This document shows, piece by piece, positions 19,660 to 46,704 of a stretch of DNA of 64,000 nt. This DNA is from the human T2T-CHM13v2.0 reference genome, Homo sapiens. Position 1 is the first letter of the stretch; each line of letters starts with the position of its first letter. The stretch lies in NCBI RefSeq assembly GCF_009914755.1, contig NC_060933.1; one strand, given 5' to 3'. Made by a program: the position numbers and the translations under genes. The notes beneath the pieces were generated by a model. The model was not told the DNA's origin. It was given only the letters and a program-made list of their open reading frames with translations, and did no database searches.

Positions 19660-19695
19660 GGGGGTGGGCCGAGGGCTGAGGCGTCCACAGCAAAG

Positions 19696-22477
19696 ATGGC
19701 TCTGCTTCTGCTGAGCCTGGGGCTGAGCCTCATCGCAGCCCAGGAGTTCGATCCCCACACCGTTATGCAGAGGAACTACAACGTGGCCAGGGTGTGTCTG
19801 CGTTGGGGTCTGTGGGGAAGGGGCCAGGCTTCAAGGCACCTGTCTTCCCCCAGCCTGGGGTCTCTGACCTGTGACCAGGGCAACTGGTCCAAGGGGAGCC
19901 CACCTCTCCTCCCCAAGCTGTGACAGCAGCCTGGGAGAGCAGGGGTTACTCCGGGAGGGTCGGGTGGGAGAGGCCTGGGAGAGTGACTGGGGCCCTGAGA
20001 GGTTAGAGGGGGCCCTGGGAGGGCAGAGGGGAAAGCTGGAGAGTGGAGTGGCGGCCAGCAGGGAGATGGGGGCCCTAAGAGGACAGAGGGGTTCCTAGAA
20101 GTATAGGGGAGACCTAGGGAAAAGAGGGGGACTCAGTGGGAAAGGGTGGAGCGGGGGACCTTGAGAGGACAGAGGGGGACCTGGAGGGGCAGAGGAGAGA
20201 CCTGTGGGGCAGAGGGGGCCCTGGAAGGGCAGAGGGCATTCTGTGAGCAGAGGGGGGACCTTGGGATCAAAGGGGGGATCTGGGGACATAGGGGAGACCT
20301 GGGGGGCAGCGGGGGCCCTGGAAGGGCGGAGGGCATTCTGTGAGCAGAGGGGCGACCTTGGGGGTAAAGGGGGGATCTGGTGACGAGGGGAGACCTGGGG
20401 GCACTGGAAGGGCGGAGGGGTTCTGGTTGGGAGCCAGATGCTAAGGGGCCGGGCCCTGGGAGGGAAGACTGTGGGCGCTAAGCATCCCCAGGGCTGTCCC
20501 GCGGCCCCCCACCCACTGGAGCTCTTTGTCTTCAGGTTTCAGGGGTCTGGTATTCTATTTTCATGGCCTCAGATGACCTGAATCGGATTAAAGAAAATGG
20601 AGACCTGAGGGTCTTCGTCCGGAATATTGAACACTTGAAGAACGGCAGCCTAATATTTGATTTCGAATACATGTGCGTGTTGCCCATCTCAGCTGGCATC
20701 AGGAAGACCCATGCCCCTGCCACCCCAACGCATACTCTCACTCTTGCACACACACGCTCGCACACTCACTGACTTGCACTCTGGTGAGAGCCTGAGCCTG
20801 TGCGTGTGACCCTTGGGGGCAGGGTGAGGTGGGAGCAGGGACTTGGTCTGCCTGGCACTGTGCTCTTCCCTGAAACATAGAGATGAAATCGCCCCCTTCC
20901 AAGGCTGGGGTGAGGTTCGAGGAGATGAGGGTGTCCGGTGGGCTGCAGCAGGGCCCAGCCCAAGAACTTGGGGCTGTGGAATGAGGCCTGGGCATTGGGA
21001 GGGTGAGCCTGTGCCCTGGAGGAGGGGTGCTCTCTGCCATCGCACGTCCAGGGGGCTGGAGCTCCACTCCCGGCATCTTCCTGGCTGGCTTCCAGGGTGC
21101 AGGGGGAGTGTGTGGCTGTGGTCGTGGTCTGCGAGAAGACAGAGAAGAATGGGGAATACTCCATCAACTGTAAGTGGAAGCCAGGCTCCTCCTGGTCTCA
21201 CAGTCGGGGGTCTCCTTTCTCCAGGGCCTGGGCCATATTCTGGTGAGCACTGACTCTGGGGATTTTAGTTAAGCCCCTGACAGCTTGACCCTGAACTGGA
21301 GGGACCCATCCTGGCACCTACCCAGGGGGGCTCCTGGCCCAGGGGAAGCAGGGAGGCAGGTGTGTCATGCTGAGCTCTGGGGGGTGAGCCCACTGAGGGG
21401 CCACCAGGGTCTGCAAGCCAATGACAAGGAGGGAGGGGGCTGTGCCGCTGCTGCCCGCCCCCTGTGCAGGGGTCTCCGCTGGGTGAGCACCGTGGGCTCC
21501 TCCCCTCCCGCCTCAAAAGGCCACTTGACCCCCCATCCTCACTTGCGGCCACACAGCACGTGTCACAGGACCCTGAGGGTGGCGGGGCCAGGCCACGCTG
21601 AGCCATGTCTCCACGCAGATGAGGGCCAGAACACAGTGGCCGTCTCGGAGACTGACTACAGGCTGTTCATCACCTTCCACCTCCAGAACTTCAGGAACGG
21701 GACCGAGACCCACACGCTGGCGCTCTATGGTACCTCCGCTGTCCCCCTCTGACCCCCTCGGGGACCCCACCTCCTCTGAAGTCTGGCCCAACCCTGGGCG
21801 GAGGAGGGTCTCGCAGTGGCCCTGGGGTTTGGAGAGGTGGTTCCCGTTGGCTATTCCTTCCCACAGACACACCGTTAGGGTGCTGGGTGCTTCAATCTGT
21901 CACCTCCCATCTCACTTGGCACAAAGCCCCTCTCTGGTCAGGGCGTGACCCCCTGCCCAGCCTCAGCACTTCCTGAGCACCCCCAGCAAGGCCCAGCTTC
22001 ACACAGAACCAACTCTGTTCCCAGCACGGGTCCCATAGCTGGAACCCTCCTTCCTGAGCAGATTTGAAGAAACCTGCGAAAAGTACGGACTTGGCTCACA
22101 AAATATCATCGACTTGACCAACAAAGGTCAGCCCCACTGCTCCCGGACCAAGCGGGAGCCGGGACAGGGTGGGGATGGGAGGTGTGCCTGCGGGGTCCCT
22201 GTCCCTGCGCTGAGAGCCCCCTCTGTCCTTCCAGATCCCTGCTACTCCAAGCATTACAGGAGCCCGCCCAGGCCTCCCATGCGTGAGCTGCGACTCGGGA
22301 CGGGCAGGGGGCTGGATGGGGAGAGCTTGGGGCCAACGTCAGAGGCTGCGGGGTCCCACCCCAGGAGGTGCCCATCCCTCCCCCTGGTCTGGGAACCGAA
22401 CACAAGGTGCTTTGGTGAAAGATGCTGTGAAAAGCATCCTGGAGTCGGGGCAGTGATGGGGCCTTCCAGGGTGGTAA
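19696..22477 (+). CDS. LCN9: Epididymal-specific lipocalin-9. Exons 19696-19791, 20536-20672, 21096-21169, 21619-21729, 22025 (canonical) or 22070 (alternative)-22126, 22235-22282, 22470-22477
   Basis: Signal peptide MALLLLSLGLSLIAA; lipocalin motifs SGVWY (GxW), ETDY and LALY; GT-AG introns; exon sizes 96/137/74/111/102. With the 22070 acceptor the frame gives 176 aa ending PMRW*; the 22025 acceptor runs into TAG at 22036. Confidence 0.93.
20010..20420. repeat. G-rich degenerate tandem repeat in LCN9 intron 1
   Basis: Recurring gggggccctgga and gggagacctgggg units; the block at ~20215-20310 recurs at ~20310-20410. Confidence 0.75.
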
Positions 22478-22539
22478 GGTCTGAGCAGGAAGTGAGATGG
22501 GGCCCTGTGTGAGTCTCCAGGGGCTGATGTCACCATATG

Positions 22540-22900
22540 CGGGTGACTAGGACAACCAGGATTTACTTTCTCACAGCCTGGAGCCCGAGGTCTGAAACCC
22601 GAGGTCCGCAGGGCTGTGCTCCCTCCACCAGCTCCCGGGAAGGGTCCTTCCTGCCTCTTCCGGCTGCTGGGGGCTCCAGGCATCCCTGGCTTGTGGCTGT
22701 CACTCCAGCCTCTGCCTCTGTCTGTGTCTCCTCTTCTGTCTCTTCTAAGGACACTTGTCATTGGATTTCGGGCCCATCTTCATGCAGAATGATCTCCCGT
22801 CAAGACCTCAACTTCACACCTGCAAAGACCCTTTCCCATCAGATGCCCTTCACAGGCTCCAGGCACTAGGAAAGGAGCATGTCCTTTGAGGGACACCACT
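22540..22900. mobile_element. MLT1 (ERVL-MaLR) LTR fragment
   Basis: MLT1-like motifs tttctcacagcctggag, catccctggcttgtgg, taaggacacttgtcattggattt, cacctgcaaagaccct. Confidence 0.7.
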
Positions 22901-23312
22901 CAGGTCACCACAGGCTCCTTCTCCGAGCTGCCCCTCCCTTCTCAGACATGGTCCCAGCCCAGTAAAAACCCCCAGGGCCCCCTTCCCTTCCCAGAGCCTG
23001 AGCCTCCCAGAGATACGCCTCTGAAGGCACCTCTGCATTTCTGCACGAGGGTTCCTGAGGGTAAAGGAGTGGATGTACCTGTGGTGCGTGGTGGCCCCAA
23101 GATGCGGGTGAGATGAGATGGCAACCGGCAACCAAGGCCCTACCCCTCCCCTCTCCGCCCCTCCCCTCGCTGACCTTCCCCTCCCTGTCCCTCCCCTCTC
23201 TGCCCCTCCCCTCCTGTCCCCTCCCTGGGCTCAGCCACTGCCTTTGGGGGAAGATGATCAACAATGTCACAGCTGAGGCAGGTGCCTGCGCCCCCGCCTC
23301 CATGTTTTGGTG

Positions 23313-23318
23313 AATAAA
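23313..23318 (+). terminator. Candidate LCN9 poly(A) signal
   Basis: First AATAAA I could find downstream of the LCN9 stop, followed by GT-rich sequence. Confidence 0.4.
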
Positions 23319-24419
23319 AGGGAGGTACCAGCCAATCTGCGGTGACTTTGTGGGTTAAAAGTGATTGTTGGTTGGGCCTCTGTCAGAGATGTGAAAACGA
23401 CTGCATTTGTGTGATGCTCTCGAAATCACAAAACCGCAGAGGGGGACATGAGTCGGTGATTTCCAGAGGTTACAAATGGAAGGTAGGAATTCAGCCAGAA
23501 AGGGGCACCAGGAGGGGCCCTGGTGACGATGGAACGTCCTGCACTGTGACCCTGGCGGTGGACATGACCCTGCACGTGCAGCAAAAATGCGGCTCTGTCT
23601 GAGGAGCCGCTGGCCCTGCCCCCTGCCCGGGGGAGAACATTTTGCAGCCCGAGACCCAGAAGCGTCTGTGCTGGGGGCGTGCGCTGGGCGGCCCCAACTC
23701 TGGCGTCTGCGTGAGCTCTCCAAGGGGTCATCCTGTGGGTCACAGTCCCGGGTGCTCAGGAAGAACCTGTCCCCAGAGCCAGTGCCTGCTTGTAAAGGAG
23801 CTAAGTGGAGCTGTCTTAGGATGAGGGTCTGGATGCCACCCCCCACCCCACCTCCATTGGGAGCTCCAGGCTATAGGGTGAGGCTGGGTAGAGTTTTAGT
23901 GCCCGCTGTATGGGTGCCAGGCTTGGGGAAGGAGCAGCTCCATTGGGATGGGAGGGAGTGGGAGGCACCTGGCATTCCCATGGCTGCCCAGCTTCCGGCC
24001 CCTTGTTTGGATCTGGGCCCAGCCTACTGAGCTGCAGCGGGAACGCGAGAAGCTGCCCACTCGGCGGGGCCCGTTGGTGCACAAAGCTGGCCTCGGAGGA
24101 GCAGAGCCAAGGCTGCCAGAAAGGGGTGCTGGGAGGCCACTGCCCATTGGTGCAGGGGGAGCCTCTGGGCCCCAGAGGAGGCCTGGGCATGGGGGTAGAT
24201 GTGGACATAGGCAGAAGCCTTTAGCCCCACCCCAGAAGACAGCACAAAGGGGAGCTGAACCAGAGCTGAGTGTCCCCAGCACCCACCCCACCATCAGCTG
24301 CTCAGCACCAGGCTGGCCCTGGCCTCAGACTCCTGCAGCCTCAACACCAGGGGCCTCAGGTGGACAAAGGAACAGGGCAGTGGGCAGGGCATGAAAGAAC
24401 AACCAAGAGACCACCCTCA

Positions 24420-24780
<361 letters not shown>

Positions 24781-25380
24781 TGTATTCAGACCCCGACTCC
24801 TCATCCTCCACTGCTCCCTCCTGGTCCAAGCACGCCCTTCTTTCCCTGATGATGAAGAAGCACCCCAAGGTGGTCTTGCACTTCCGTGCTGCACCCCAGG
24901 TTATTCTCTCCCAGCAGCCAGACCATCCCTGTTGAAACAGAAGTCAATGTTCTGCTTCCTGTGATGCAGAGAAGCTCTGAGCAGGCCCTCTCCCACTACA
25001 CACACAGGTAACAGCTAGGAAGTTTGAATCAAATATAAACAACTTTCTAAAGGTACTCGAGTGTGGAGGAAGGTTGACTCCCATGACGTCTACCATGACC
25101 CTATTTTCAAATATGGTCCCATTCTGAGGTGCATCAACAAGCATTTTGGGTGCTTGGGGAGCACAATTCCGTCACAACACCCTCCAATCACCATCTCTGC
25201 TCTGACAACCCATGGGACTCATCATATGGGTGGGGACACCTTTGGCACAATTTGGCATCATCTTCTGGAGCCCAGAACCCCCTACCCTCCACCCCCCAAC
25301 CCCAGTGCTCAATCCCAGGCTCTCTCTGTTTAGGGCCTGTGTCCCCCTAGCTGTGTTCCAGGAGGGTTCCCCAAAGTGAC

Positions 25381-25739
25381 TGATATGGTTTGGCTGTGTA
25401 CCCACCCAAATCTCATCTTGAATTCCCACATGTTGTGGGAGGGACCTGGCGGGAGGTAACTGAATCATGGGGGCAGGTCTTTCCCATGCTGCTCTTGTGA
25501 TAGTGAATAAGTCTCACGATATCTGATGGTTTTAAAAAGAGGAGTTTCCCTGCACAGGCTCTCTCTCTCTTTGCCTGCTGCCATCCCTGTAAGACCTGAC
25601 TTGCTCCTCCTTGCTTCCCACCATGATTGTGAGGCTTCCCCAGCCACGCGGAACTGTAAGTCCAATTAAACCTCTTTGTTGTGTAAATTGCTCAGTCTCA
25701 GGTATGTCTTTATCAGCAGCGTGAAAATGGACTAATACA
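25381..25739. mobile_element. THE1 (MaLR) solo LTR
   Basis: TGATATGGTTTGGCTGTGT…GGACTAATACA, near-TSD gtgac/gtaac. Confidence 0.9.
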
Positions 25740-25939
25740 GTAACCAACACACAGGCCCAGAAAGTTGGCCCAGCCCAAGATTGGCTATTGATTTTGGAAA
25801 CTGGCTTTGTGGGAGCATAACATTTTGGTGTCTAAAGCCACAGAGAAAGAACAGACTGGCTCACATTTCCCAAGATTAAGCCCCCTCTCCAAGTCAGGGA
25901 CACCCAGGGACACCTCACCAGGCACCCTGACCACACAGC

Positions 25940-27051
25940 TATATAGACAGGCCAGGGCCCAGAATCCCTGCAGCCAGAGAGTCCCCATTTGTCCCTCTGC
26001 CCCAACTGCCCATGCCTGGGGATGCAGCTGATTGTGGACCTGGCACTGGCTGGTGGCCTCTGAGCTCATGGGGTGCACTCCCAAGAGCAGGCGTCGGACC
26101 TGTCGCAGGTGAGACAGTACCTCCCAAGGGGCTCCTGGGGGCTCCCAGAAGGCAGGGCCAGGGACAGGGCTGGGAGGACAGTCCTGACATCCAGTCAGCA
26201 TCATGGCGGTCAAACCCTGAGTGAGCCTTCTGGACAGTGGGCCCACCTGGCTCCTGGCTGGAGTAGAAGTGTCTCCCATCTCCCACACCTGCCTGGAGAT
26301 CTTTCCGGAGAGCAGGACTCTGAGAGTCCCTGCCTCAGGCAGCCATGCCACCCCATCTGAGTCGGCGCCCAGGAAGCAGGCCTGAGAGGCCCCCTAGTAC
26401 CACACTCCCTGGTCAGTGTAGCCAGATGCCCACGGGCACCGCTGCCCACAGCAGAGCATGGACACCATGGGCACCCCCAGACCAGGATGTGGGGCTCAAT
26501 CCCAGGGTTGCCCTTTGCACAGCTTGTAAATGGCTGAGGGGGATTCCAAGGGTAGCTGTGGGGTTGGAGCCTCTGCTGTGGTCCTGGAAGAAGCTCTGAG
26601 CTCAGTCCAGCAGGGCTCCAGGGACCCCAGCAGTGGGGCAACACCAGGCACTGGAGATGAACAAGGCTGACCATCCTCCCCACTTGCTGTTCATGAGCCA
26701 CCATCCACAGGAGGTGCTAGGGAGGCCGGCGATCCCTTGGCCAGGGCATAGGGTCAGCCTGAAGGCCTGGAACCCACCAGCTTGGCCAGCACCTCAATGC
26801 GTTCCTGGGCACAATCTCAGCAGGACACCAGGCGCTGACTGCTGGTGTGGACGGAGCTGGACGGGGGAGGAGGGGGTTCTGGCCCCCCATCAGCCTCTCT
26901 CGTGCCCGCAGCTCTCTGGGAGCTGGCACACCTCAGCATTGGCCTCCAACGACTCTGCCCAGATCAAACCTGGTGGGCGCTTCAGGTTCTTCATCAACAC
27001 CTTGGACCCGAAGGACGGGAACCTGCATGGGGAAATCCTTGTGCCATGAGT
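25940..27051 (+). pseudogene. Lipocalin pseudogene, putative orthologue of dog Can f 2: TATA 25940, exon 1 26022-26108, exon 2 26912-27045
   Basis: Exon 1 MQLIVDLALAGGL*AHGVHSQEQASDLSQ with CAG|GTGAGA donor (phase 0); exon 2 LSGSWHTSALASNDSAQIKPGGRFRFFINTLDPKDGNLHGEILVP (GxW motif, 134 nt, phase 2) ending CC|ATGAGT, a broken donor. Confidence 0.85.
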
Positions 27052-28329
27052 CCAGAGTGCAAGGCGGGCTCAGGATGGGTGGGGTGCTGGGTGGGCTTGG
27101 TCAGCCCTTGGTGGAGGGATGCTGCTTGACCACCAGCTGGTCTGACTCCCGCCTCCAGCCCTCTCGCCTGCAGTGTGGACTTGGCCACCCACCTGCCTCT
27201 GCCAGCCATGCCCGGCTTGTGTGGCCCCTCACCATAGCCCGCCCAGGGTCTCTCGGGCATCGAAAGGACAAGCTTAAGGGTCGTGCAAATGCACCGCGTG
27301 TACAGGACGGCTGTGTGCACACGTGCACCGGGGCGAGGGGCTGTCGATGCCACTTCCCTTCGCAGTGTTCTCTTAGTTACCGACAGTGTGGCAGCCTGCA
27401 GTTACCAGGGAAGCCGGAGCTAGGAGCAGAGGCAGGCGAAGCCCCAGGAGGGGAGGCATGTCCACTCCCCACAGCCCCTCCCATACCAGAGGCCCTTGAC
27501 AATGCGCCTGCAGGTCAGGCGACCAGCCAGGTGTGGGGTGAGCCCCCGCCTCTGTTTCCCCAAATGACTGGTATGTTCCTGGGCACACATCCGATGGCTG
27601 CCAGCCTGCACGTCACGCCCAGCTGCCGGAGCTACTGCGGGATTCCAGAACAAGGAACGTGACATGCTCGGCCTGGAGCGGAACAAGGCACCTGGCTCCC
27701 GCACCCTCGACGGGGCCCTGCCCAGTGGACACGACCACGTGGAAGCCTCTTCCTCCTGGCACTGCAGAGCGGATGGCGGATGCAGATCCCACTTTGGGGA
27801 TGGCGGGCACTGCTGGTAAATTCTAGGCACAGGAGCACCCTCTGGACAGGGCTTCCTAACCTGGGGCCTCTTGGCATGGGGCACCCACAGCGCAGTGCCA
27901 GGGCCAGGAACCGCTCACTCAGCAAGAGCAGCAACTTCCCACCGAGTGCTTTTCAGGCAAGGAAGCCACTGGATTTCTCCATGTGCTCTAGGGCTCCGTG
28001 ACCCAGGAGAGAGAGATTTCTCCCGGGAATGGGGTGTGTGCCGCTGAGCGCTGGCTGCAGACGCCCAGGGACCGGACCAGGCCCAGGCAAGCTGGGGGTT
28101 TGGGGTGGGACGGGACCATGAGGAGAGGAGGGGATGGGGACCCAGTGCCTCAAGGGGGCGGCAGCGGGCATGGGACGGCTGAGCAGATGTTCCCACCGCT
28201 GGCTGGAGGACTCTAGGAGGCGGGGCCATCTGAGCCTTCACGGGAGTCTGAAGGAGGCTGGTGACCCCTGGCCTCTCTGACAAGGAGCGGCTCTGCCCAG
28301 CACAAATGGGTCCCTCAAAGCTCTGGTGT

Positions 28330-28705
28330 CACCATCTGAGATCAGTCTGGCCAGGCTGAAATGGAGCTGTTGGCAGGGCCATGCCCCCTCTCGAGGCTCT
28401 CGGGGAGACCCTGCTTCCTCCCCTTTCCCAGCTCCAGCGCCACTTCCTGCCTCCTGGCCCCTTCCCCCTTCAGAGCCAGCAGCGTGAAGTAGCAGCTTCA
28501 CCTCTCCCTCTGCGTCTTCCCTCTTCTTGCCTCTCTCTTATGAGGACACTCGTGACTGCATTTGGAGCCCACCAGGCAATCCAGGGTCATGCCCTCACCC
28601 CGAGATCCTGAACTTCGCCACAACTACAGAGCCCCCTTTGCCATATGAGGTGACATTCACAGGTTCCAGGGTTTAGGATGCGGACGTCATTATTCAGCCA
28701 ATCAC
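28330..28705. mobile_element. MLT1 LTR fragment
   Basis: cttatgaggacactcgtgactgcatttggagccc and tttgccatatgaggtgacattcacaggttccaggg motifs. Confidence 0.7.
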
Positions 28706-28804
28706 AATGTATATCTCAAAAACACAAAGAATAAGCAAGCTGGAGTGGCTACATTTATATAAGGAAGGGGACCATTCCCAGGGATCAAGACAGACATTTT
28801 GGAT

Positions 28805-33230
<4,426 letters not shown>

Positions 33231-33954
33231 ATTCTTTGCTGGAATTCCTGTGTGGTTTCCTCCTGGCCCTGCCCTGACACAGAAATGGGGTCCGGTCCGT
33301 GGGGCTCCCACTGTCATCTCGTCCCTGTGATGAGGAGAAGACAGCCTGGGAGGCCGACGGCTGGTGTGGCCATGAGGCTTCTAACCCGACAGCCCCATCT
33401 CCCTCGTTCGGGCTGACGGCAACTGAGCTGGAGGAGTCTGTGGCCCAGGACCCAGGAGCTGGCATGGGCTGGCATGGGCTACAGGACAGGGCTTTCGTGG
33501 GGCAGAGCCCGCAGGTGTCCAGCTCCCGCCCAGGGACACAGCTGCATGTCTGGGATCAGCCTGGGTTCTTGTTCCTCAGCACACACCCACCTGACAGGTA
33601 GGAGTAAGCTGATTTAGACAAACAAATCCATACAGCAAATAACAAAAAGATCAGCCTCTTAGATACAGCAACATTGGGAAGATGATATGAAAGGAAAGTT
33701 CAGAGGTGCTGAGCTAGGGCAGCCTGGGCACCCAACAAGGCGTTCCTCTATTTCCCAGTGAGGATAGAGGGAAAATGCAGGGGGCCAATTTGAATTTAAA
33801 AATACCCAACCCAGAGTAAAATCTCAGCTGCCTTCCTACAAGCAACGCACTGACGGTGATCCCCACACATCGGCATCACCATGGACAAGGTCCTCTCCAC
33901 GTGGAAATCCGCGCTTTCCTGCTCGCAGCTTCATGAACATTTTCTTGGCTCCTG

Positions 33955-34062
33955 TGTGCGCCGTGGTCTTTGTGCACCATGGCCTGTGTACACCATGGTC
34001 TGTGTGTGTCGTGGTCTGTGTGCACCGTGGCCTGTGTACACCGTGGTCTGTGTGCGCCATGG
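33955..34062. repeat. Short tandem repeat (~15-16 bp, tgtgcaccgtggtct)
   Basis: About 7 imperfect copies visible. Confidence 0.8.
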
Positions 34063-35885: not shown

Positions 35886-36775
35886 CTATCCCCACCCCTC
35901 CCTAGAGGTGAGCACTATTCCCTCCCCCTCCCCACAGGTCAGCACTATCCCCTCCCCTCCCCACAGGTGAGCAGTATCCCCTCCCCTCCCCACAGGTGAG
36001 CAGTATCCCCTCCCCTCCCCACAGGTCAGCACTATCCCCTCCCCTCCCCACAGGTCAGCACTATCCCCTCTCCTCCCCCTCCCCACAGGTAAGCACTATC
36101 CCCTCCCCCTCCCCACAGGTCAGCACTATCCCCTCCCCCTCCCCACAGGTCAGCACTATCCCCTCCCCTCCCCACAGGTCAGCACTATCCCCTCCCCTCC
36201 CCCTCCCCACAGGTAAGCACTATCCCCTCCCCCTCCCCACAGGTCAGCACTATCCCCTCCCCCTCCCCACAGGTGAGCACTATCCCCTCCCCTCCCCACA
36301 GGTGAGCACTATCCCCTCCCCCTCCCCACAGGTCAGCACTATCCCCTCCCCCTCCCCACAGGTGAGCACTATCCCCTCCCCTCCCCACAGGTGAGCACTA
36401 TCCCCTCCCCCTCCCCACAGGTGAGCACTATCCCCTCCCCCTCCCCACAGGTCAGCACTATCCCCTCCCCTCCCCCTCCCCACAGGTAAGCACTATCCCC
36501 TCCCCCTCCCCACAGGTCAGCACTATCCCCTCCCCCTCCCCACAAGTGAGCACTATCCCCTCCCCTCCCCACAGGTCAGCACTATCCCCTCCCCCTCCCC
36601 ACAGATGAGCACTATCCCCTCCCCTCCCCACAGGTCAGCACTATCCCCTCCCCTCCCCCTCCCCACAGGTGAGCACTATCCCCTCCCCTCCCCCTCCCCA
36701 CAGGTCAGCACTATCCCCTCCCCCTCCCCACAGGTCAGCACTATCCCCTCCCCTCCCCACAGGTGAGCACTATTC
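35886..36775. repeat. ~30-bp C-rich minisatellite, about 29 copies (cccctccccacaggt[c/g/a]agcactatc)
   Basis: Highly homogeneous tandem units counted by eye. Confidence 0.97.
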
Positions 36776-42199: not shown

Positions 42200-42500
42200 G
42201 GTGACCAGGGATAGGGTGAGCCAGGGGTAGGGTGAGCCGGAGATGAGGTGAGCCTGGGGTGAGTTGAGCCAGGGATGCGATGAGCCGGGGGTGGGGTGAC
42301 CGGGGGGTAGGATCACCGGGGGTAGGTTGAGCCAGGGATAGGGTGAGCCAGGGGTAGGGTGAGCTGGGGGTGGGGTGAGCCGGGGGTGGGGTGAGCCGGG
42401 GGTGGGGTGAGCCAGGGATAGGGTGAGCCTGGGGGAGGGTGAGCCGGGGGTGGGGTGGCCTGGGGGTGGGGTGACCCGGGGTGGGCCAGCGTGGGGTGAC
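42200..42500. repeat. G-rich ~20-bp tandem repeat (gggtgagccgggggtg)
   Basis: Repeated G-run units by inspection. Confidence 0.9.
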
Positions 42501-45161: not shown

Positions 45162-45560
45162 GGAAGCCACTGCTCCATGTCAGCGAGGCTGGACCCCCGT
45201 CCTGCAGGGTCACAATCCCTCCAGCCAGAAGCCACTGCTCCATGTCAGCGAGGCCGGACCCCCGTCCTGCAGGGTCACAATCCCTCCAGCCAGAAGCCAC
45301 TGCTCCATGTCAGCGAGGCCGGACCCCCGTCCTGCAGGGTCACAATCCCTCCAGCCAGGAAGCCACTGCTCGATGTCAGCGAGGCTGGACCCCCGTCCTA
45401 CAGGGTCACAGTTCCTGCAGCCTGGAAGCCACTGCTCGATGTCAGCGAGGCTGGACCCCCGTCCTGCAGGGTCACAGTTCCTGCAGCCTGGAAGCCACTG
45501 CTCGATGTCAGCGAGGCTGGACCCCCGTCCTGCAGGGTCACAATCCCTCCAGCCAGAAGC
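45162..45560. repeat. 65-67-bp minisatellite, 6 copies
   Basis: gaagccactgctc[c/g]atgtcagcgaggc[t/c]ggacccccgtcctgcagggtcaca… repeated head to tail. Confidence 0.95.
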
Positions 45561-46704
45561 CGCTCCCAGGTCGAGCACAACCTTATTGTCAATCACTGTG
45601 ACACAATTATGTGTCAATCACAGGCCACGTTCTTGATCAATCTCCTCTGTGGCCACCCAGGACCCTGCAGACCTCACAAGCCAAGGAGATGAGTGGAGCC
45701 CGGACGTACTTGTAAAAGCAGGTGACACCGTCATGTGTGATGTCAGGCTCATGCTGGGCACCGTGAGGAGAGCATCCCGCAGGCCCAGGACAGCGCAGGG
45801 AGACCAGGCAGGTAGCTGCCACCTCCATGCAGGTGAGGGACGGGGGTGTGGAGGTGGGGAGGAGTGTGGAGAAGCAGGCAATGTGTGCAGTATGCTGATG
45901 GCCCTGGATGGTGCCTCCAGACACCAATCACATTGCACGGGATGTGAATTCCATCTCAATGCAGCTGCTGAAACAAAACCCCCGGGTGCGTGGAGCCCTC
46001 TGCCTGCGTCTGCAGCTGCGCGTTCATCAGCTCAATAAATCCTCCCAGAGATGAGTCTGAAACCCTATGAGGTGTCTACTTAGCATCAGACACTACTCTG
46101 AGTGATTTAGCTCTATCCACTCTCACTCCTCCCCTCTCTACCAAGCCCATTTGACAGATGAGATATGGGCTTGGTGAGGCTGCGTCGCAGGCAGCATCCA
46201 GGACAGGACAGAACTAAGCCTGGCCCGGCTGCCAGCTGGGCCAGGGGTTGTGGGTGAACCCGGAAGGCAGAGCCAAAGGAACAACTCACAGGCCAGGCAG
46301 GGCCCAGGGCAAGGGGCACTCATGGGTGCCACCAACGGAGGCCTGAACTTTGGGGACGGCAGAGATAATGGGGAGCAGGGAAAGGAGAGTGAGGGCCAAG
46401 GGCCAGGCCCGAATGCTCCGCTCCTATGTCTGAGGTGTCCAAGGGCCCAGATGTGAATGGGGGCCTCCACAGCAGCCCAAACCCGACACGCACCCACCGC
46501 CAGCCTCCCCCTCTCACCTCCCTCACCAAAGGACAGAATCCCGCACCTCCCAGACTCGGATGTCCATTCCCAAGGCCCATGGGAGGGACACACTGGTGAC
46601 CCTCAGGCAGACGGGCATCCAGCCCACAGCCTTGGGGGTTCCTCCAGGCAGCCCACCTGCCCACTCCCGCTCATGCTGCGCACGGAGATGAACCTGGAGC
46701 CGGC

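What the first reader, a model, noticed from the sequence alone, without database searches (positions are those of the whole stretch)
25940..27051. Relic of a lost lipocalin gene resembling dog allergen Can f 2, directly downstream of LCN9
Seen in sequence: TATATA at 25940, ATG at 26022, a signal-peptide-like exon 1 with TGA at 26061 and a good donor, and a 134-nt exon 2 with the lipocalin GxW motif and correct 0/2 phases. From memory, Can f 2 begins MQLLLLTVGLALICGLQAQ and continues LSGRWHSVALASNKSDLIKPWGHFRVFIHSMSAKDGNLHGDILIP. That aligns without gaps to LSGSWHTSALASNDSAQIKPGGRFRFFINTLDPKDGNLHGEILVP here, far better than to the neighbouring LCN9. Inference: a unitary pseudogene of a salivary or chemosignal lipocalin. 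Loss of the self counterpart could bear on Can f 2 allergenicity in humans. I do not know of an annotation for it.
Basis: partly seen in the sequence, partly recalled or inferred. Interest (0 to 1): 0.9.

Follow-up and report, generated by a model that had tools for sequence, protein, structure and literature searches.

The report
Dead human copy of Can f 2
Just downstream of human LCN9 lies the broken front half (promoter, exon 1, exon 2) of the gene that in dogs makes the salivary allergen Can f 2, so humans carry only a dead stump of this odour-carrier-type protein.

Summary
Window 26912-27045 (+) is a lipocalin exon 2. Its 45-codon reading (26912-27046) matches dog Can f 2 without gaps (29/45 identical, PDB phmmer E 4.8e-14). 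It matches the neighbouring LCN9 at only 35%.

A profile of 10 Can f 2 orthologues scores it at E 2.2e-26. Exon 1 (26022-26108) matches the colugo, slow loris and galago orthologues (0-1 of 5000 shuffles). Promoter and intron flanks are also alignable with carnivore and pangolin loci. In a tree the fragment falls in the eutherian Can f 2 clade (94/97), apart from LCN9.

The gene is dead three ways:
- an in-frame TGA at codon 14;
- an intron-2 donor that reads AT instead of GT;
- no trace of exons 3-6 anywhere in the 64 kb.

Intact annotated copies exist in carnivores, pangolin, colugo and two lorisiform primates. None from a haplorhine appeared.

Dog synteny and the time of loss could not be tested. 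RefSeq has no gene here, and nine literature searches found no description. It is a new member of a known kind, like the MUP pseudogene. The allergy link is speculation.

The parts
25940..25946 (+). TATA box (TATATAG) of the dead gene, 76 nt before the ATG
   Evidence: Read. The surrounding 25912-25986 aligns (BLOSUM62 local score 43, no shuffle control) with the stretch upstream of exon 1 in P0039, an ORF that reads through seal-like Can f 2 DNA.
26022..26108 (+). Exon 1: 29 codons, phase 0, holding a degraded signal peptide and the start of the mature protein
   Evidence: Translation; donor CAG|GTGAGA. Local alignment scores: colugo 51 (0 of 5000 shuffles reach it), unnamed P0027 53 (0/5000), slow loris 44 (1/5000), galago 38 (1/5000), dog 33 (41/5000), human LCN9 16 (3571/5000). 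It ranks 3rd of 1685 ATG-started windows against the dog-like N-terminus. No PDB match, as expected, because solved chains lack the signal peptide.
26061..26063 (+). In-frame TGA at codon 14, inside the signal peptide
   Evidence: In one search the alignment places it opposite W (colugo), R (galago, slow loris) and Q (P0027, dog). Each of W (TGG) and R (CGA) is one base change from TGA; this is inference.
26109..26911 (+). Intron 1 (803 nt). It is retained, so the copy is not a processed pseudogene.
   Evidence: GT at 26109 and AG at 26910-26911. Intronic stretches 26547-26621 match read-through ORFs P0004 (13/18 identical, E 0.001) and P0005 (E 0.002). Region 26016-26243 matches P0039 (E 0.039).
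26912..27045 (+). Exon 2: 134 nt, phase 0 in and phase 2 out, with the lipocalin G-x-W motif and the first beta strands. No stop or frameshift.
   Evidence: PDB Can f 2 E 4.8e-14. Profile of 10 orthologues E 2.2e-26, 89 bits. tblastn with P0014 gives 3e-12 and with P0011 gives 8.5e-13. Identity to named orthologues is 27-34/45. Pfam Lipocalin PF00061 gives E 0.011 and 16.4 bits, below the 23-bit cut-off for this fragment.
27046..27051 (+). Disabled intron-2 donor: ATGAGT where GT is required
   Evidence: Read-through ORFs from five other sources continue P-W-V-Q-G after exon 2 (P0004, P0006, P0007, P0008, P0009), which implies CC|GTGGGT. Human reads P-stop-V-Q-S. The +4 G>A change is seen directly. 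The +1 G>A change is inferred, because working genes need GT; it lies in a CpG.
27052..27215 (+). Retained 5' part of intron 2. Beyond about 27215 no similarity to any orthologue was found.
   Evidence: P0004 residues 81-160 align through 27118 (E 2e-23, exon 2 included). P0006 residues 115-128 align to 27168-27209 (9/14 identical, E 0.15, weak on its own).

Best explanation
This is the truncated remnant of the human orthologue of the Can f 2 lipocalin gene. It sits in the 9q34.3 lipocalin cluster, 2.6 kb downstream of LCN9 on the same strand.

The ancestral gene had the usual lipocalin layout: a TATA promoter, exon 1 for the signal peptide, and exons 2-6 for an eight-stranded barrel. It made a secreted carrier of about 160 residues for small hydrophobic molecules. 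In the dog this protein is salivary.

In humans only the promoter, exon 1, intron 1, exon 2 and the first 170 nt or so of intron 2 remain. The remnant cannot make a protein, for three reasons:
1. Codon 14 is a TGA.
2. The intron-2 donor is AT instead of GT.
3. Exons 3-6 are gone. These encode most of the barrel, the conserved cysteine and the C-terminal helix.

Shown here: the identity of the two exons, the lesions, the absence of recognisable 3' exons in the window, and intact annotated orthologues in other mammals, including two strepsirrhine primates.

Inferred: the 3' exons were removed by a deletion rather than by slow decay, because exon 2 is no more diverged than working orthologues are from each other. 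Also inferred: both point lesions are CpG-type transitions, and no other working human copy exists. The order and date of the lesions are unknown.
For: Exon 2:
- Can f 2 is the top PDB hit at E 4.8e-14, against 3.2e-5 for the next family.
- The orthologue profile gives E 2.2e-26, against 2.1e-5 for LCN9's own exon 2.
- Identity is 29/45 to dog, 34/45 to pangolin and 33/45 to colugo, against 14/39 to LCN9.

Exon 1:
- 0-1 of 5000 shuffles reach the score against colugo, P0027, slow loris and galago. LCN9 is not significant.

Tree:
- Of 17 rows, 11 including the human fragment form the eutherian Can f 2 clade at 94/97.
- The marsupial trichosurin/MUP-like rows and unnamed P0016 form a second clade at 98/94, with LCN9 outside.

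Flanks:
- Non-coding flanks match orthologous loci.

Lesions:
- They are read directly.

Missing exons 3-6:
- Three + frames of 27047-31503 against the PDB gave no lipocalin. A positive control of similar length recovered Can f 2 at E 1e-11.
- tblastn of full-length orthologues against all 64 kb found only exon 2, then LCN9's exon-5 region at E 0.03.
- Exon-wise Smith-Waterman scores in 27047-34000 were equalled by 7-24 of 30 null chunks.
- Exon-wise profiles over 2985 six-frame peptides found nothing downstream of the relic. They did detect LCN9's paralogous exon-5 region at E 0.0085.

Intact named orthologues:
- Dog, dingo, grey seal, panda, bears, pangolins, colugo, galago and slow loris.

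Annotation:
- The RefSeq table supplied with the finding has no gene at 23336-31500.
Against: - Synteny with dog Can f 2 was not tested.
- The position of the human fragment inside the eutherian clade is unresolved. It does not group specifically with colugo and lorises, so orthology rather than an old tandem paralogue is not strictly proven.
- The rest of the human genome was not searched for a second copy.
- The Pfam match of the fragment is below the family cut-off.
- The +1 donor change is inferred, not seen in orthologue DNA.
- A weak exon-5-like match at 29928-29972 (score 35, reached by 7 of 30 null chunks) cannot be fully dismissed as a last trace of a 3' exon.
- The absence of haplorhine proteins comes from two word-index searches of annotated proteins. 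It is weak evidence on timing.
Confidence: 0.88

Rival explanations
1. The fragment is a partial tandem duplicate of a neighbouring lipocalin (LCN9 or another 9q34 paralogue) that was never a working gene in the human lineage. On this reading it is not the orthologue of Can f 2.
For: It lies in a cluster that grew by tandem duplication (PMC5571153 and PMC8420045, passages read). Only the 5' half is present. Its position within the eutherian clade is unresolved.
Against: Identity to LCN9 is 14/39, against 27-34/45 to Can f 2 orthologues. No nucleotide similarity to the LCN9 gene was found apart from a shared repeat. The tree puts it in the Can f 2 clade at 94/97, away from LCN9. The promoter, intron 1 and the start of intron 2 match Can f 2 loci of other mammals.
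Confidence: 0.05
2. All exons were once here and the 3' exons decayed in place or were broken up by repeat insertions, rather than being removed in one deletion. The relic would then be very old.
For: The 4 kb after exon 2 contains two Alus, further Alu pieces, L1 ORF2 fragments and two copies of an older repeat. There is one weak exon-5-like match at 29928-29972.
Against: Exon 2 has no stop or frameshift. It is as similar to working orthologues (29-34/45) as those are to each other across orders (26-36/45). Equal-age exons 3-5 should therefore still be detectable. The same profiles detect LCN9's much more distant exon-5 region, yet find nothing here.
Confidence: 0.1
3. The stretch is still used, for example as a promoter with first exons of an unannotated non-coding transcript, or as a regulatory element of LCN9 or SOHLH1.
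For: The TATA region and exon 2 are well preserved. RefSeq lists enhancers nearby at 23072-24073 (table supplied with the finding).
Against: No transcript or functional element is annotated at 25940-27215 in the supplied RefSeq table. Preservation is no greater than neutral decay from a fairly recent loss would leave. No expression data were available here.
Confidence: 0.04

Closest known systems
   Same: The same gene family branch. Exon 2 is 27-34/45 identical and gapless, exon 1 is alignable, and the exon phases, TATA region and intron flanks correspond.
   Different: The human copy has a stop in the signal peptide and a dead intron-2 donor, and it lacks exons 3-6. It can encode at most a 13-residue peptide. 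Synteny was not tested.
Human MUPP, the major urinary protein unitary pseudogene at 9q32
   Same: A chemosignal-type lipocalin lost in humans but intact in other mammals. MUPP is also reported to be disabled by a G-to-A change at the donor of intron 2 (PMC2864566 and PMC6381713, passages read).
   Different: It is a different locus (9q32, not 9q34.3) and a different branch of the family. MUPP keeps all its exons and is described as human-specific. The relic here has lost its 3' half, and its age is unknown.
Human LCN9, the neighbouring gene (19683-23335)
   Same: The same cluster, strand, exon layout and phases, within the MUP-like branch of lipocalins.
   Different: Only 35-36% identity in exon 2 and a separate branch in the tree. 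LCN9 is annotated as protein-coding.
Trichosurin and marsupial 'MUP-like' milk lipocalins
   Same: The next-best solved structure (E 3.2e-5) and sister clade in the tree.
   Different: 15/41 identity in exon 2 for the possum protein. It forms a distinct clade at 98/94.

Membership tests
Lipocalin (Pfam PF00061, kernel lipocalins) | G-x-W motif of the first structurally conserved region, at the start of strand A | tested here: met
   G-S-W is encoded at 26918-26926. Pfam aligns residues 2-37 to profile positions 1-38.
Lipocalin (Pfam PF00061, kernel lipocalins) | Score above the Pfam gathering threshold, i.e. a whole eight-stranded barrel | tested here: not met
   16.4 bits against a cut-off of 23. 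Only about 45 of about 145 profile positions are encoded, and exons 3-6 are absent. It is a fragment of a lipocalin gene, not a lipocalin.
Lipocalin (Pfam PF00061, kernel lipocalins) | Conserved exon-intron layout: phase-0 end of exon 1, and an exon 2 of about 134-140 nt ending in phase 2 | tested here: met
   Exon 1 is 87 nt (phase 0). Exon 2 is 134 nt by homology, against LCN9's 96 and 137 nt.
Can f 2 orthologue group (eutherian) | Closest similarity is to Can f 2 proteins rather than to any other lipocalin branch | tested here: met
Can f 2 orthologue group (eutherian) | Falls inside the clade in a phylogeny with outgroups | tested here: met
   Clade of 11 rows at 94/97. The position inside the clade is unresolved. 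The human row fills only 41% of the columns.
Can f 2 orthologue group (eutherian) | Conserved synteny (same flanking genes as in dog and other species) | not testable with these tools
   No mammalian genome collection is held. A paper search for 'Can f 2' with 'chromosome 9' found nothing. Alignable non-coding flanks are indirect support.
Unitary (unprocessed) pseudogene | Disabling lesions in a copy that keeps its introns | tested here: met
   TGA at 26061-26063, AT donor at 27046-27047, intron 1 retained, 3' exons missing.
Unitary (unprocessed) pseudogene | Intact functional orthologue in other species | tested here: met
   Full-length annotated proteins of 176-184 aa in panda, bear, seal, pangolin, colugo, galago and slow loris, plus dog Can f 2, whose structure is solved. 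Function in those species was not tested here.
Unitary (unprocessed) pseudogene | No working copy of the same gene elsewhere in the same genome | not tested
   Only this 64-kb window was searched. The published list of 19 human LCN genes has no Can f 2-type member (PMC6381713, passages read).
Processed (retrotransposed) pseudogene | Intronless copy with a poly-A tail | tested here: not met
   An 803-nt intron 1 with GT...AG lies between the two exons.

The most novel reading that the evidence does not exclude
The Can f 2 orthologue was lost on the haplorhine (or anthropoid) stem, as part of the same dismantling of vomeronasal and salivary chemosignalling that killed MUP and the V2R receptors. 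Strikingly, both lipocalin genes carry a G-to-A hit at the intron-2 donor. Humans therefore have no self counterpart at all for Can f 2. Among dog lipocalin allergens this contrasts with Can f 1, which has LCN1. That would make a clean natural test of the idea that distance from self shapes lipocalin allergenicity.
Probability: 0.3. Interest if true: 0.5.

Novelty: new member of a known kind. Interest (0 to 1): 0.4.

Why it matters
It gives Can f 2 its true human counterpart, which is a dead gene. The allergy literature has instead offered a distant working lipocalin: one review pairs Can f 2 with human LCN2 at about 25% similarity (PMC4949658, passages read).

It adds a second chemosignal-type lipocalin, beside MUPP, to the genes lost on the way to humans. 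It also fills an unannotated 8-kb gap between LCN9 and the next RefSeq feature.

For allergy research, it means that T-cell tolerance to a self orthologue cannot exist for Can f 2. Whether that affects sensitisation is untested. In practice, the locus should be labelled as a pseudogene so that exon 2 is not mistaken for a novel coding exon.

Tried and rejected
- **Long frames against Pfam.** Frames read with X at stops were too insensitive. The scan missed even exon 2, so it was dropped.
- **Raw frame against the PDB.** This was answered with an error because of stop codons. The same frames were then read with X at stops.
- **First homologue search.** With the 45-residue exon it returned only two ORFs 100% identical to the human sequence, which was uninformative. 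The library-wide search, followed by searches seeded with full-length hits, gave the named orthologues.
- **Exon 1 against the PDB.** No match, because solved chains lack the signal peptide. Exon 1 was tested against precursor proteins instead.
- **Nucleotide comparison with the LCN9 gene.** Only a shared interspersed repeat turned up, so there is no recent duplication.
- **The short 'E-C-K' just after exon 2.** This was considered as a fused exon 3 and rejected. It lies in another frame, with a single cysteine match, and intron 2 is otherwise orthologous.
- **The 29928-29972 exon-5-like match.** Rejected as not significant (reached by 7 of 30 null chunks).
- **Literature.** Nine searches found no description of this relic. 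The supplementary gene-loss lists of PMC2864566 and PMC7555810 were not opened and might list it. GENCODE and TOGA could not be consulted.

Full report
**1. The observation**

- TATATAG lies at 25940-25946.
- An ATG at 26022 opens a 29-codon frame. It has a TGA at 26061-26063 and ends at a consensus donor, CAG|GTGAGA, at 26108/26109.
- A pyrimidine-rich acceptor ends at 26911.
- From 26912 the frame encodes 45 residues beginning L-S-G-S-W.

Searched against all Protein Data Bank chains, this peptide finds the two Can f 2 entries, 3l4r_A and 8aei_A. The E-values are 4.8e-14 and 5.1e-14 (54 bits), over all 45 residues without a gap. Trichosurin follows at 3.2e-5 and mouse major urinary proteins at about 0.01. 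Eighteen distinct sequences were listed at E<=10.

Pfam places the peptide on positions 1-38 of the Lipocalin profile, below the cut-off, as expected for a third of a domain (E 0.011, 16.4 against 23 bits). The neighbouring LCN9, translated from the annotated exons of this window, matches it at only 35% over 40 residues (E 7.5e-4).

**2. Relatives**

A first word-index search with the 45 residues returned only two ORFs identical to the human sequence. A full scan of 1.84 billion representative proteins gave 15 hits at E<=0.001. Several of these are prokaryote-style ORF calls on mammalian DNA. They read from intron 1 through exon 2 into intron 2, or from the 5' flank through exon 1. Two are full-length lipocalins (P0011, P0014).

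Seeding with P0014 gave 25 proteins at E<=1e-5 among 153 candidates. Those carrying a source's name include:
- 'minor allergen Can f 2' or 'Can f 2-like' from dog, dingo, grey seal, sea lion, giant panda, two bears, Sunda pangolin and the colugo Cynocephalus volans;
- a 'lipocalin domain-containing protein' of the galago Otolemur garnettii;
- further out, marsupial trichosurin-like and MUP-like proteins.

Seeding with the galago protein gave 4 proteins at E<=1e-8 among 386 candidates and added 'Can f 2-like' of the slow loris Nycticebus coucang. No tarsier, monkey or ape protein appeared in either list. These are word-index searches of annotated proteins, so this is only suggestive of a loss in haplorhines.

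**3. Exon 2 and exon 1 against the orthologues**

Exon 2 identities, all gapless except where noted:

| Source | Identical / aligned |
|---|---|
| Pangolin | 34/45 |
| Colugo | 33/45 |
| Unnamed P0027 | 33/45 |
| Grey seal | 32/45 |
| Slow loris | 31/45 |
| Panda | 30/45 |
| Galago | 30/45 |
| Dog | 29/45 |
| Brown bear | 27/45 |
| P0011 | 25/44 |
| P0016 | 20/43 |
| Possum MUP-like | 15/41 |
| Human LCN9 | 14/39 |

These values lie within the range seen between working orthologues of different orders (26-36/45). A profile built from 10 orthologues scores the human ORF 26600-27046 at E 2.2e-26 (89 bits), and LCN9's own exon 2 at 2.1e-5.

Exon 1 had no PDB match, because solved chains lack the signal peptide. 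Against precursor proteins it is clearly related:

| Source | Local score | Shuffles reaching it (of 5000) |
|---|---|---|
| Colugo | 51 | 0 |
| P0027 | 53 | 0 |
| Slow loris | 44 | 1 |
| Galago | 38 | 1 |
| Pangolin | 38 | 8 |
| Dog | 33 | 41 |
| Human LCN9 | 16 | 3571 |

Against the dog-like N-terminus, exon 1 ranks third of 1685 ATG-started windows in the whole window; the first is LCN9's real exon 1.

The alignments put the human TGA opposite W (colugo), R (both lorisiforms) or Q (others). They also show an in-frame gain of four codons after the A-H that follows the stop, and a shortened hydrophobic core containing an aspartate.

**4. Tree**

Seventeen rows were chosen by me from about 30 proteins in hand:
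- the human fragment, with exon 1 and exon 2 joined in the script and X at the stop;
- ten eutherian Can f 2-type proteins;
- four marsupial proteins;
- P0016;
- human LCN9.

I left out the low-quality sea lion protein, dingo, black bear, giant pangolin and the partial ORFs.

IQ-TREE places the human fragment inside an 11-row eutherian Can f 2 clade (ultrafast bootstrap 94, SH-aLRT 97). This clade is separate from a marsupial-plus-P0016 clade (98/94) and from LCN9 on a long branch. Within the eutherian clade the human row is unresolved and does not join colugo plus lorises. Its terminal branch is 0.37, against a median of 0.15. The fragment fills 41% of the columns, so this resolution is the most that can be expected.

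**5. Non-coding flanks**

The read-through ORFs allow a look at orthologous non-coding DNA.
- The pangolin-like P0004 and seal-like P0005 match human intron 1 at 26547-26621 (13/18 identical, E 0.001; and E 0.002).
- P0039 matches 26016-26243, across exon 1 into intron 1 (E 0.039).
- The stretch of P0039 upstream of its start codon aligns with 25912-25986, which includes the TATA box (score 43, no shuffle control).
- P0004 aligns through 27118. The bear-like P0006 matches 27168-27209 inside intron 2 (9/14 identical, E 0.15, weak alone).

Together these argue that the same locus is being compared, not merely a related exon.

P0038 carries exon 4 with long stretches of introns 3 and 4. It finds nothing better than E 0.81.

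**6. Lesions**

(a) There is a TGA at codon 14.

(b) By homology with LCN9's 137-nt exon 2, which is one codon longer, the relic's exon 2 is 134 nt (26912-27045). The intron should then begin at 27046, where the sequence reads ATGAGT. Five read-through ORFs from other sources continue P-W-V-Q-G after exon 2 (P0004, P0006, P0007, P0008, P0009), which implies CC|GTGGGT. Human reads P-stop-V-Q-S. The +4 change is therefore seen directly. The +1 G-to-A change is inferred from the need for GT. It lies in a CpG, as would a CGA-to-TGA change at codon 14. Both of these last points are inference.

(c) Exons 3-6 are missing.
- The three + frames of 27047-31503, with stops read as X, gave 4, 8 and 2 PDB matches. 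All were LINE-1 ORF2, Alu-derived or chance, and none was a lipocalin.
- A control frame of similar length that contains exon 2 recovered Can f 2 at E 1e-11.
- tblastn of full-length orthologues against all 64 kb found exon 2 (3e-12 and 8.5e-13). The next hits were the LCN9 exon-5 region at E 0.03, then noise.
- Exon-wise Smith-Waterman searches of 27047-34000 gave best scores that 22, 12 and 18 of 30 null chunks equalled for P0014 exons 3-5. For P0011 exons 3-6 the counts were 15, 24, 7 and 8 of 30.
- Exon-wise profiles over 2985 six-frame peptides found nothing downstream of the relic. They did pick up LCN9's distant exon-5 region at E 0.0085.

Exon 2 is as well kept as in living genes. I therefore infer that a deletion, rather than erosion, removed the 3' half, with a breakpoint somewhere after about 27215. 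The following 4 kb is GC-rich unique sequence to about 28280. After that come two copies of an old interspersed repeat that is also present in LCN9's 3' UTR, then Alus and L1 fragments.

**7. What it is**

It is an unprocessed pseudogene relic, truncated at its 3' end, of the human member of the Can f 2 lipocalin group. It does nothing as a coding gene.

The ancestral product would have been a secreted barrel protein that carries small hydrophobic ligands. In the dog it is a salivary protein. I saw that only as the title of Konieczny et al. 1997 in reference lists. A pangolin study files its orthologue under 'salivary lipocalin' (PMC11947183, passages read).

**8. Known or new**

The RefSeq table supplied with the finding has nothing between LCN9 (ends 23335) and a lncRNA (starts 31501).

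Nine full-text searches found no description. I read passages, not whole texts, of the following papers.
- PMC6381713 lists 19 human LCN genes and names only MUPP as a human lipocalin pseudogene.
- PMC8420045 mentions recognisable lipocalin pseudogenes in general terms.
- PMC8476925, PMC5571153 and PMC4982115 have no mention.
- PMC2864566 includes Mup4 but no Lcn entry in its main-text table of unitary pseudogenes. It describes MUPP's G-to-A change at the donor of intron 2.
- PMC7555810 has no lipocalin term in its main text.
- PMC4949658 pairs Can f 2 with human LCN2 at about 25% similarity.
- PMC8974866 mentions Can f 2 only in its table of lipocalin allergens and a reference, names the MUP pseudogene as a human counterpart, and does not mention LCN9.

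The supplements of PMC2864566 and PMC7555810 were not opened. GENCODE, HGNC and TOGA could not be consulted. An existing database entry is therefore quite possible.

**9. Verdict**

I add three points: the donor is dead, the 3' half is gone, and strepsirrhine primates and the colugo keep intact copies.

It is a new member of a known kind, a unitary lipocalin pseudogene like MUPP, and of moderate interest. The allergy link is an untested idea.

Noticed in passing
window 22025-22126 (LCN9 exon 5 region), stop at 22036-22038: With the canonical acceptor at 22025, LCN9's frame reads a typical lipocalin exon 5, which matches Can f 2-type exon 5 (tblastn E 0.03, profile E 0.0085). That frame is cut by a TAG four codons in. 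The RefSeq-selected transcript instead uses an acceptor at 22062, which shifts the frame and gives a non-lipocalin tail. In this assembly human LCN9 therefore lacks the last barrel strands and the helix, and may itself be decaying.
   Followed up: partly
window 35886-36773; 45162-45561; 42200-42481; 33952-34062: Four minisatellites lie between the relic and SOHLH1. Their periods and copy numbers are 30/59 nt x 29 copies (90% matches), 66 nt x 6.1 (95%), 16 nt x 17.8, and 48 nt x 2.3. The first abuts the 3' end (35883) of the + strand lncRNA LOC105376318.
   Followed up: no
window 28373-28678 and 29707-29821, versus 22592-22871: Two copies of one old interspersed repeat lie downstream of the relic, and a third lies in LCN9's 3' UTR (69-77% identity). 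From memory they look like a MaLR-type LTR; no tool named them. Alus (28806-29437, 29986-30130, 30866-31107) and LINE-1 ORF2 fragments (about 30270-30900) fill the rest.
   Followed up: no
window 29928-29978 (+): A weak resemblance to the lipocalin exon-5 motif around the conserved cysteine: Smith-Waterman score 35 against P0011 over 29928-29972, reached by 7 of 30 null chunks. It is not significant, but it lies where a 3' exon could once have been.
   Followed up: partly
proteins P0002, P0003 (match to window 26600-27046): Two protein clusters in the large metagenome-derived libraries are 100% identical to the human intron-1/exon-2 ORF. Human DNA has therefore been ORF-called into those libraries. 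Similar read-through ORFs from carnivore-like and pangolin-like DNA proved useful as a window on orthologous introns.
   Followed up: no
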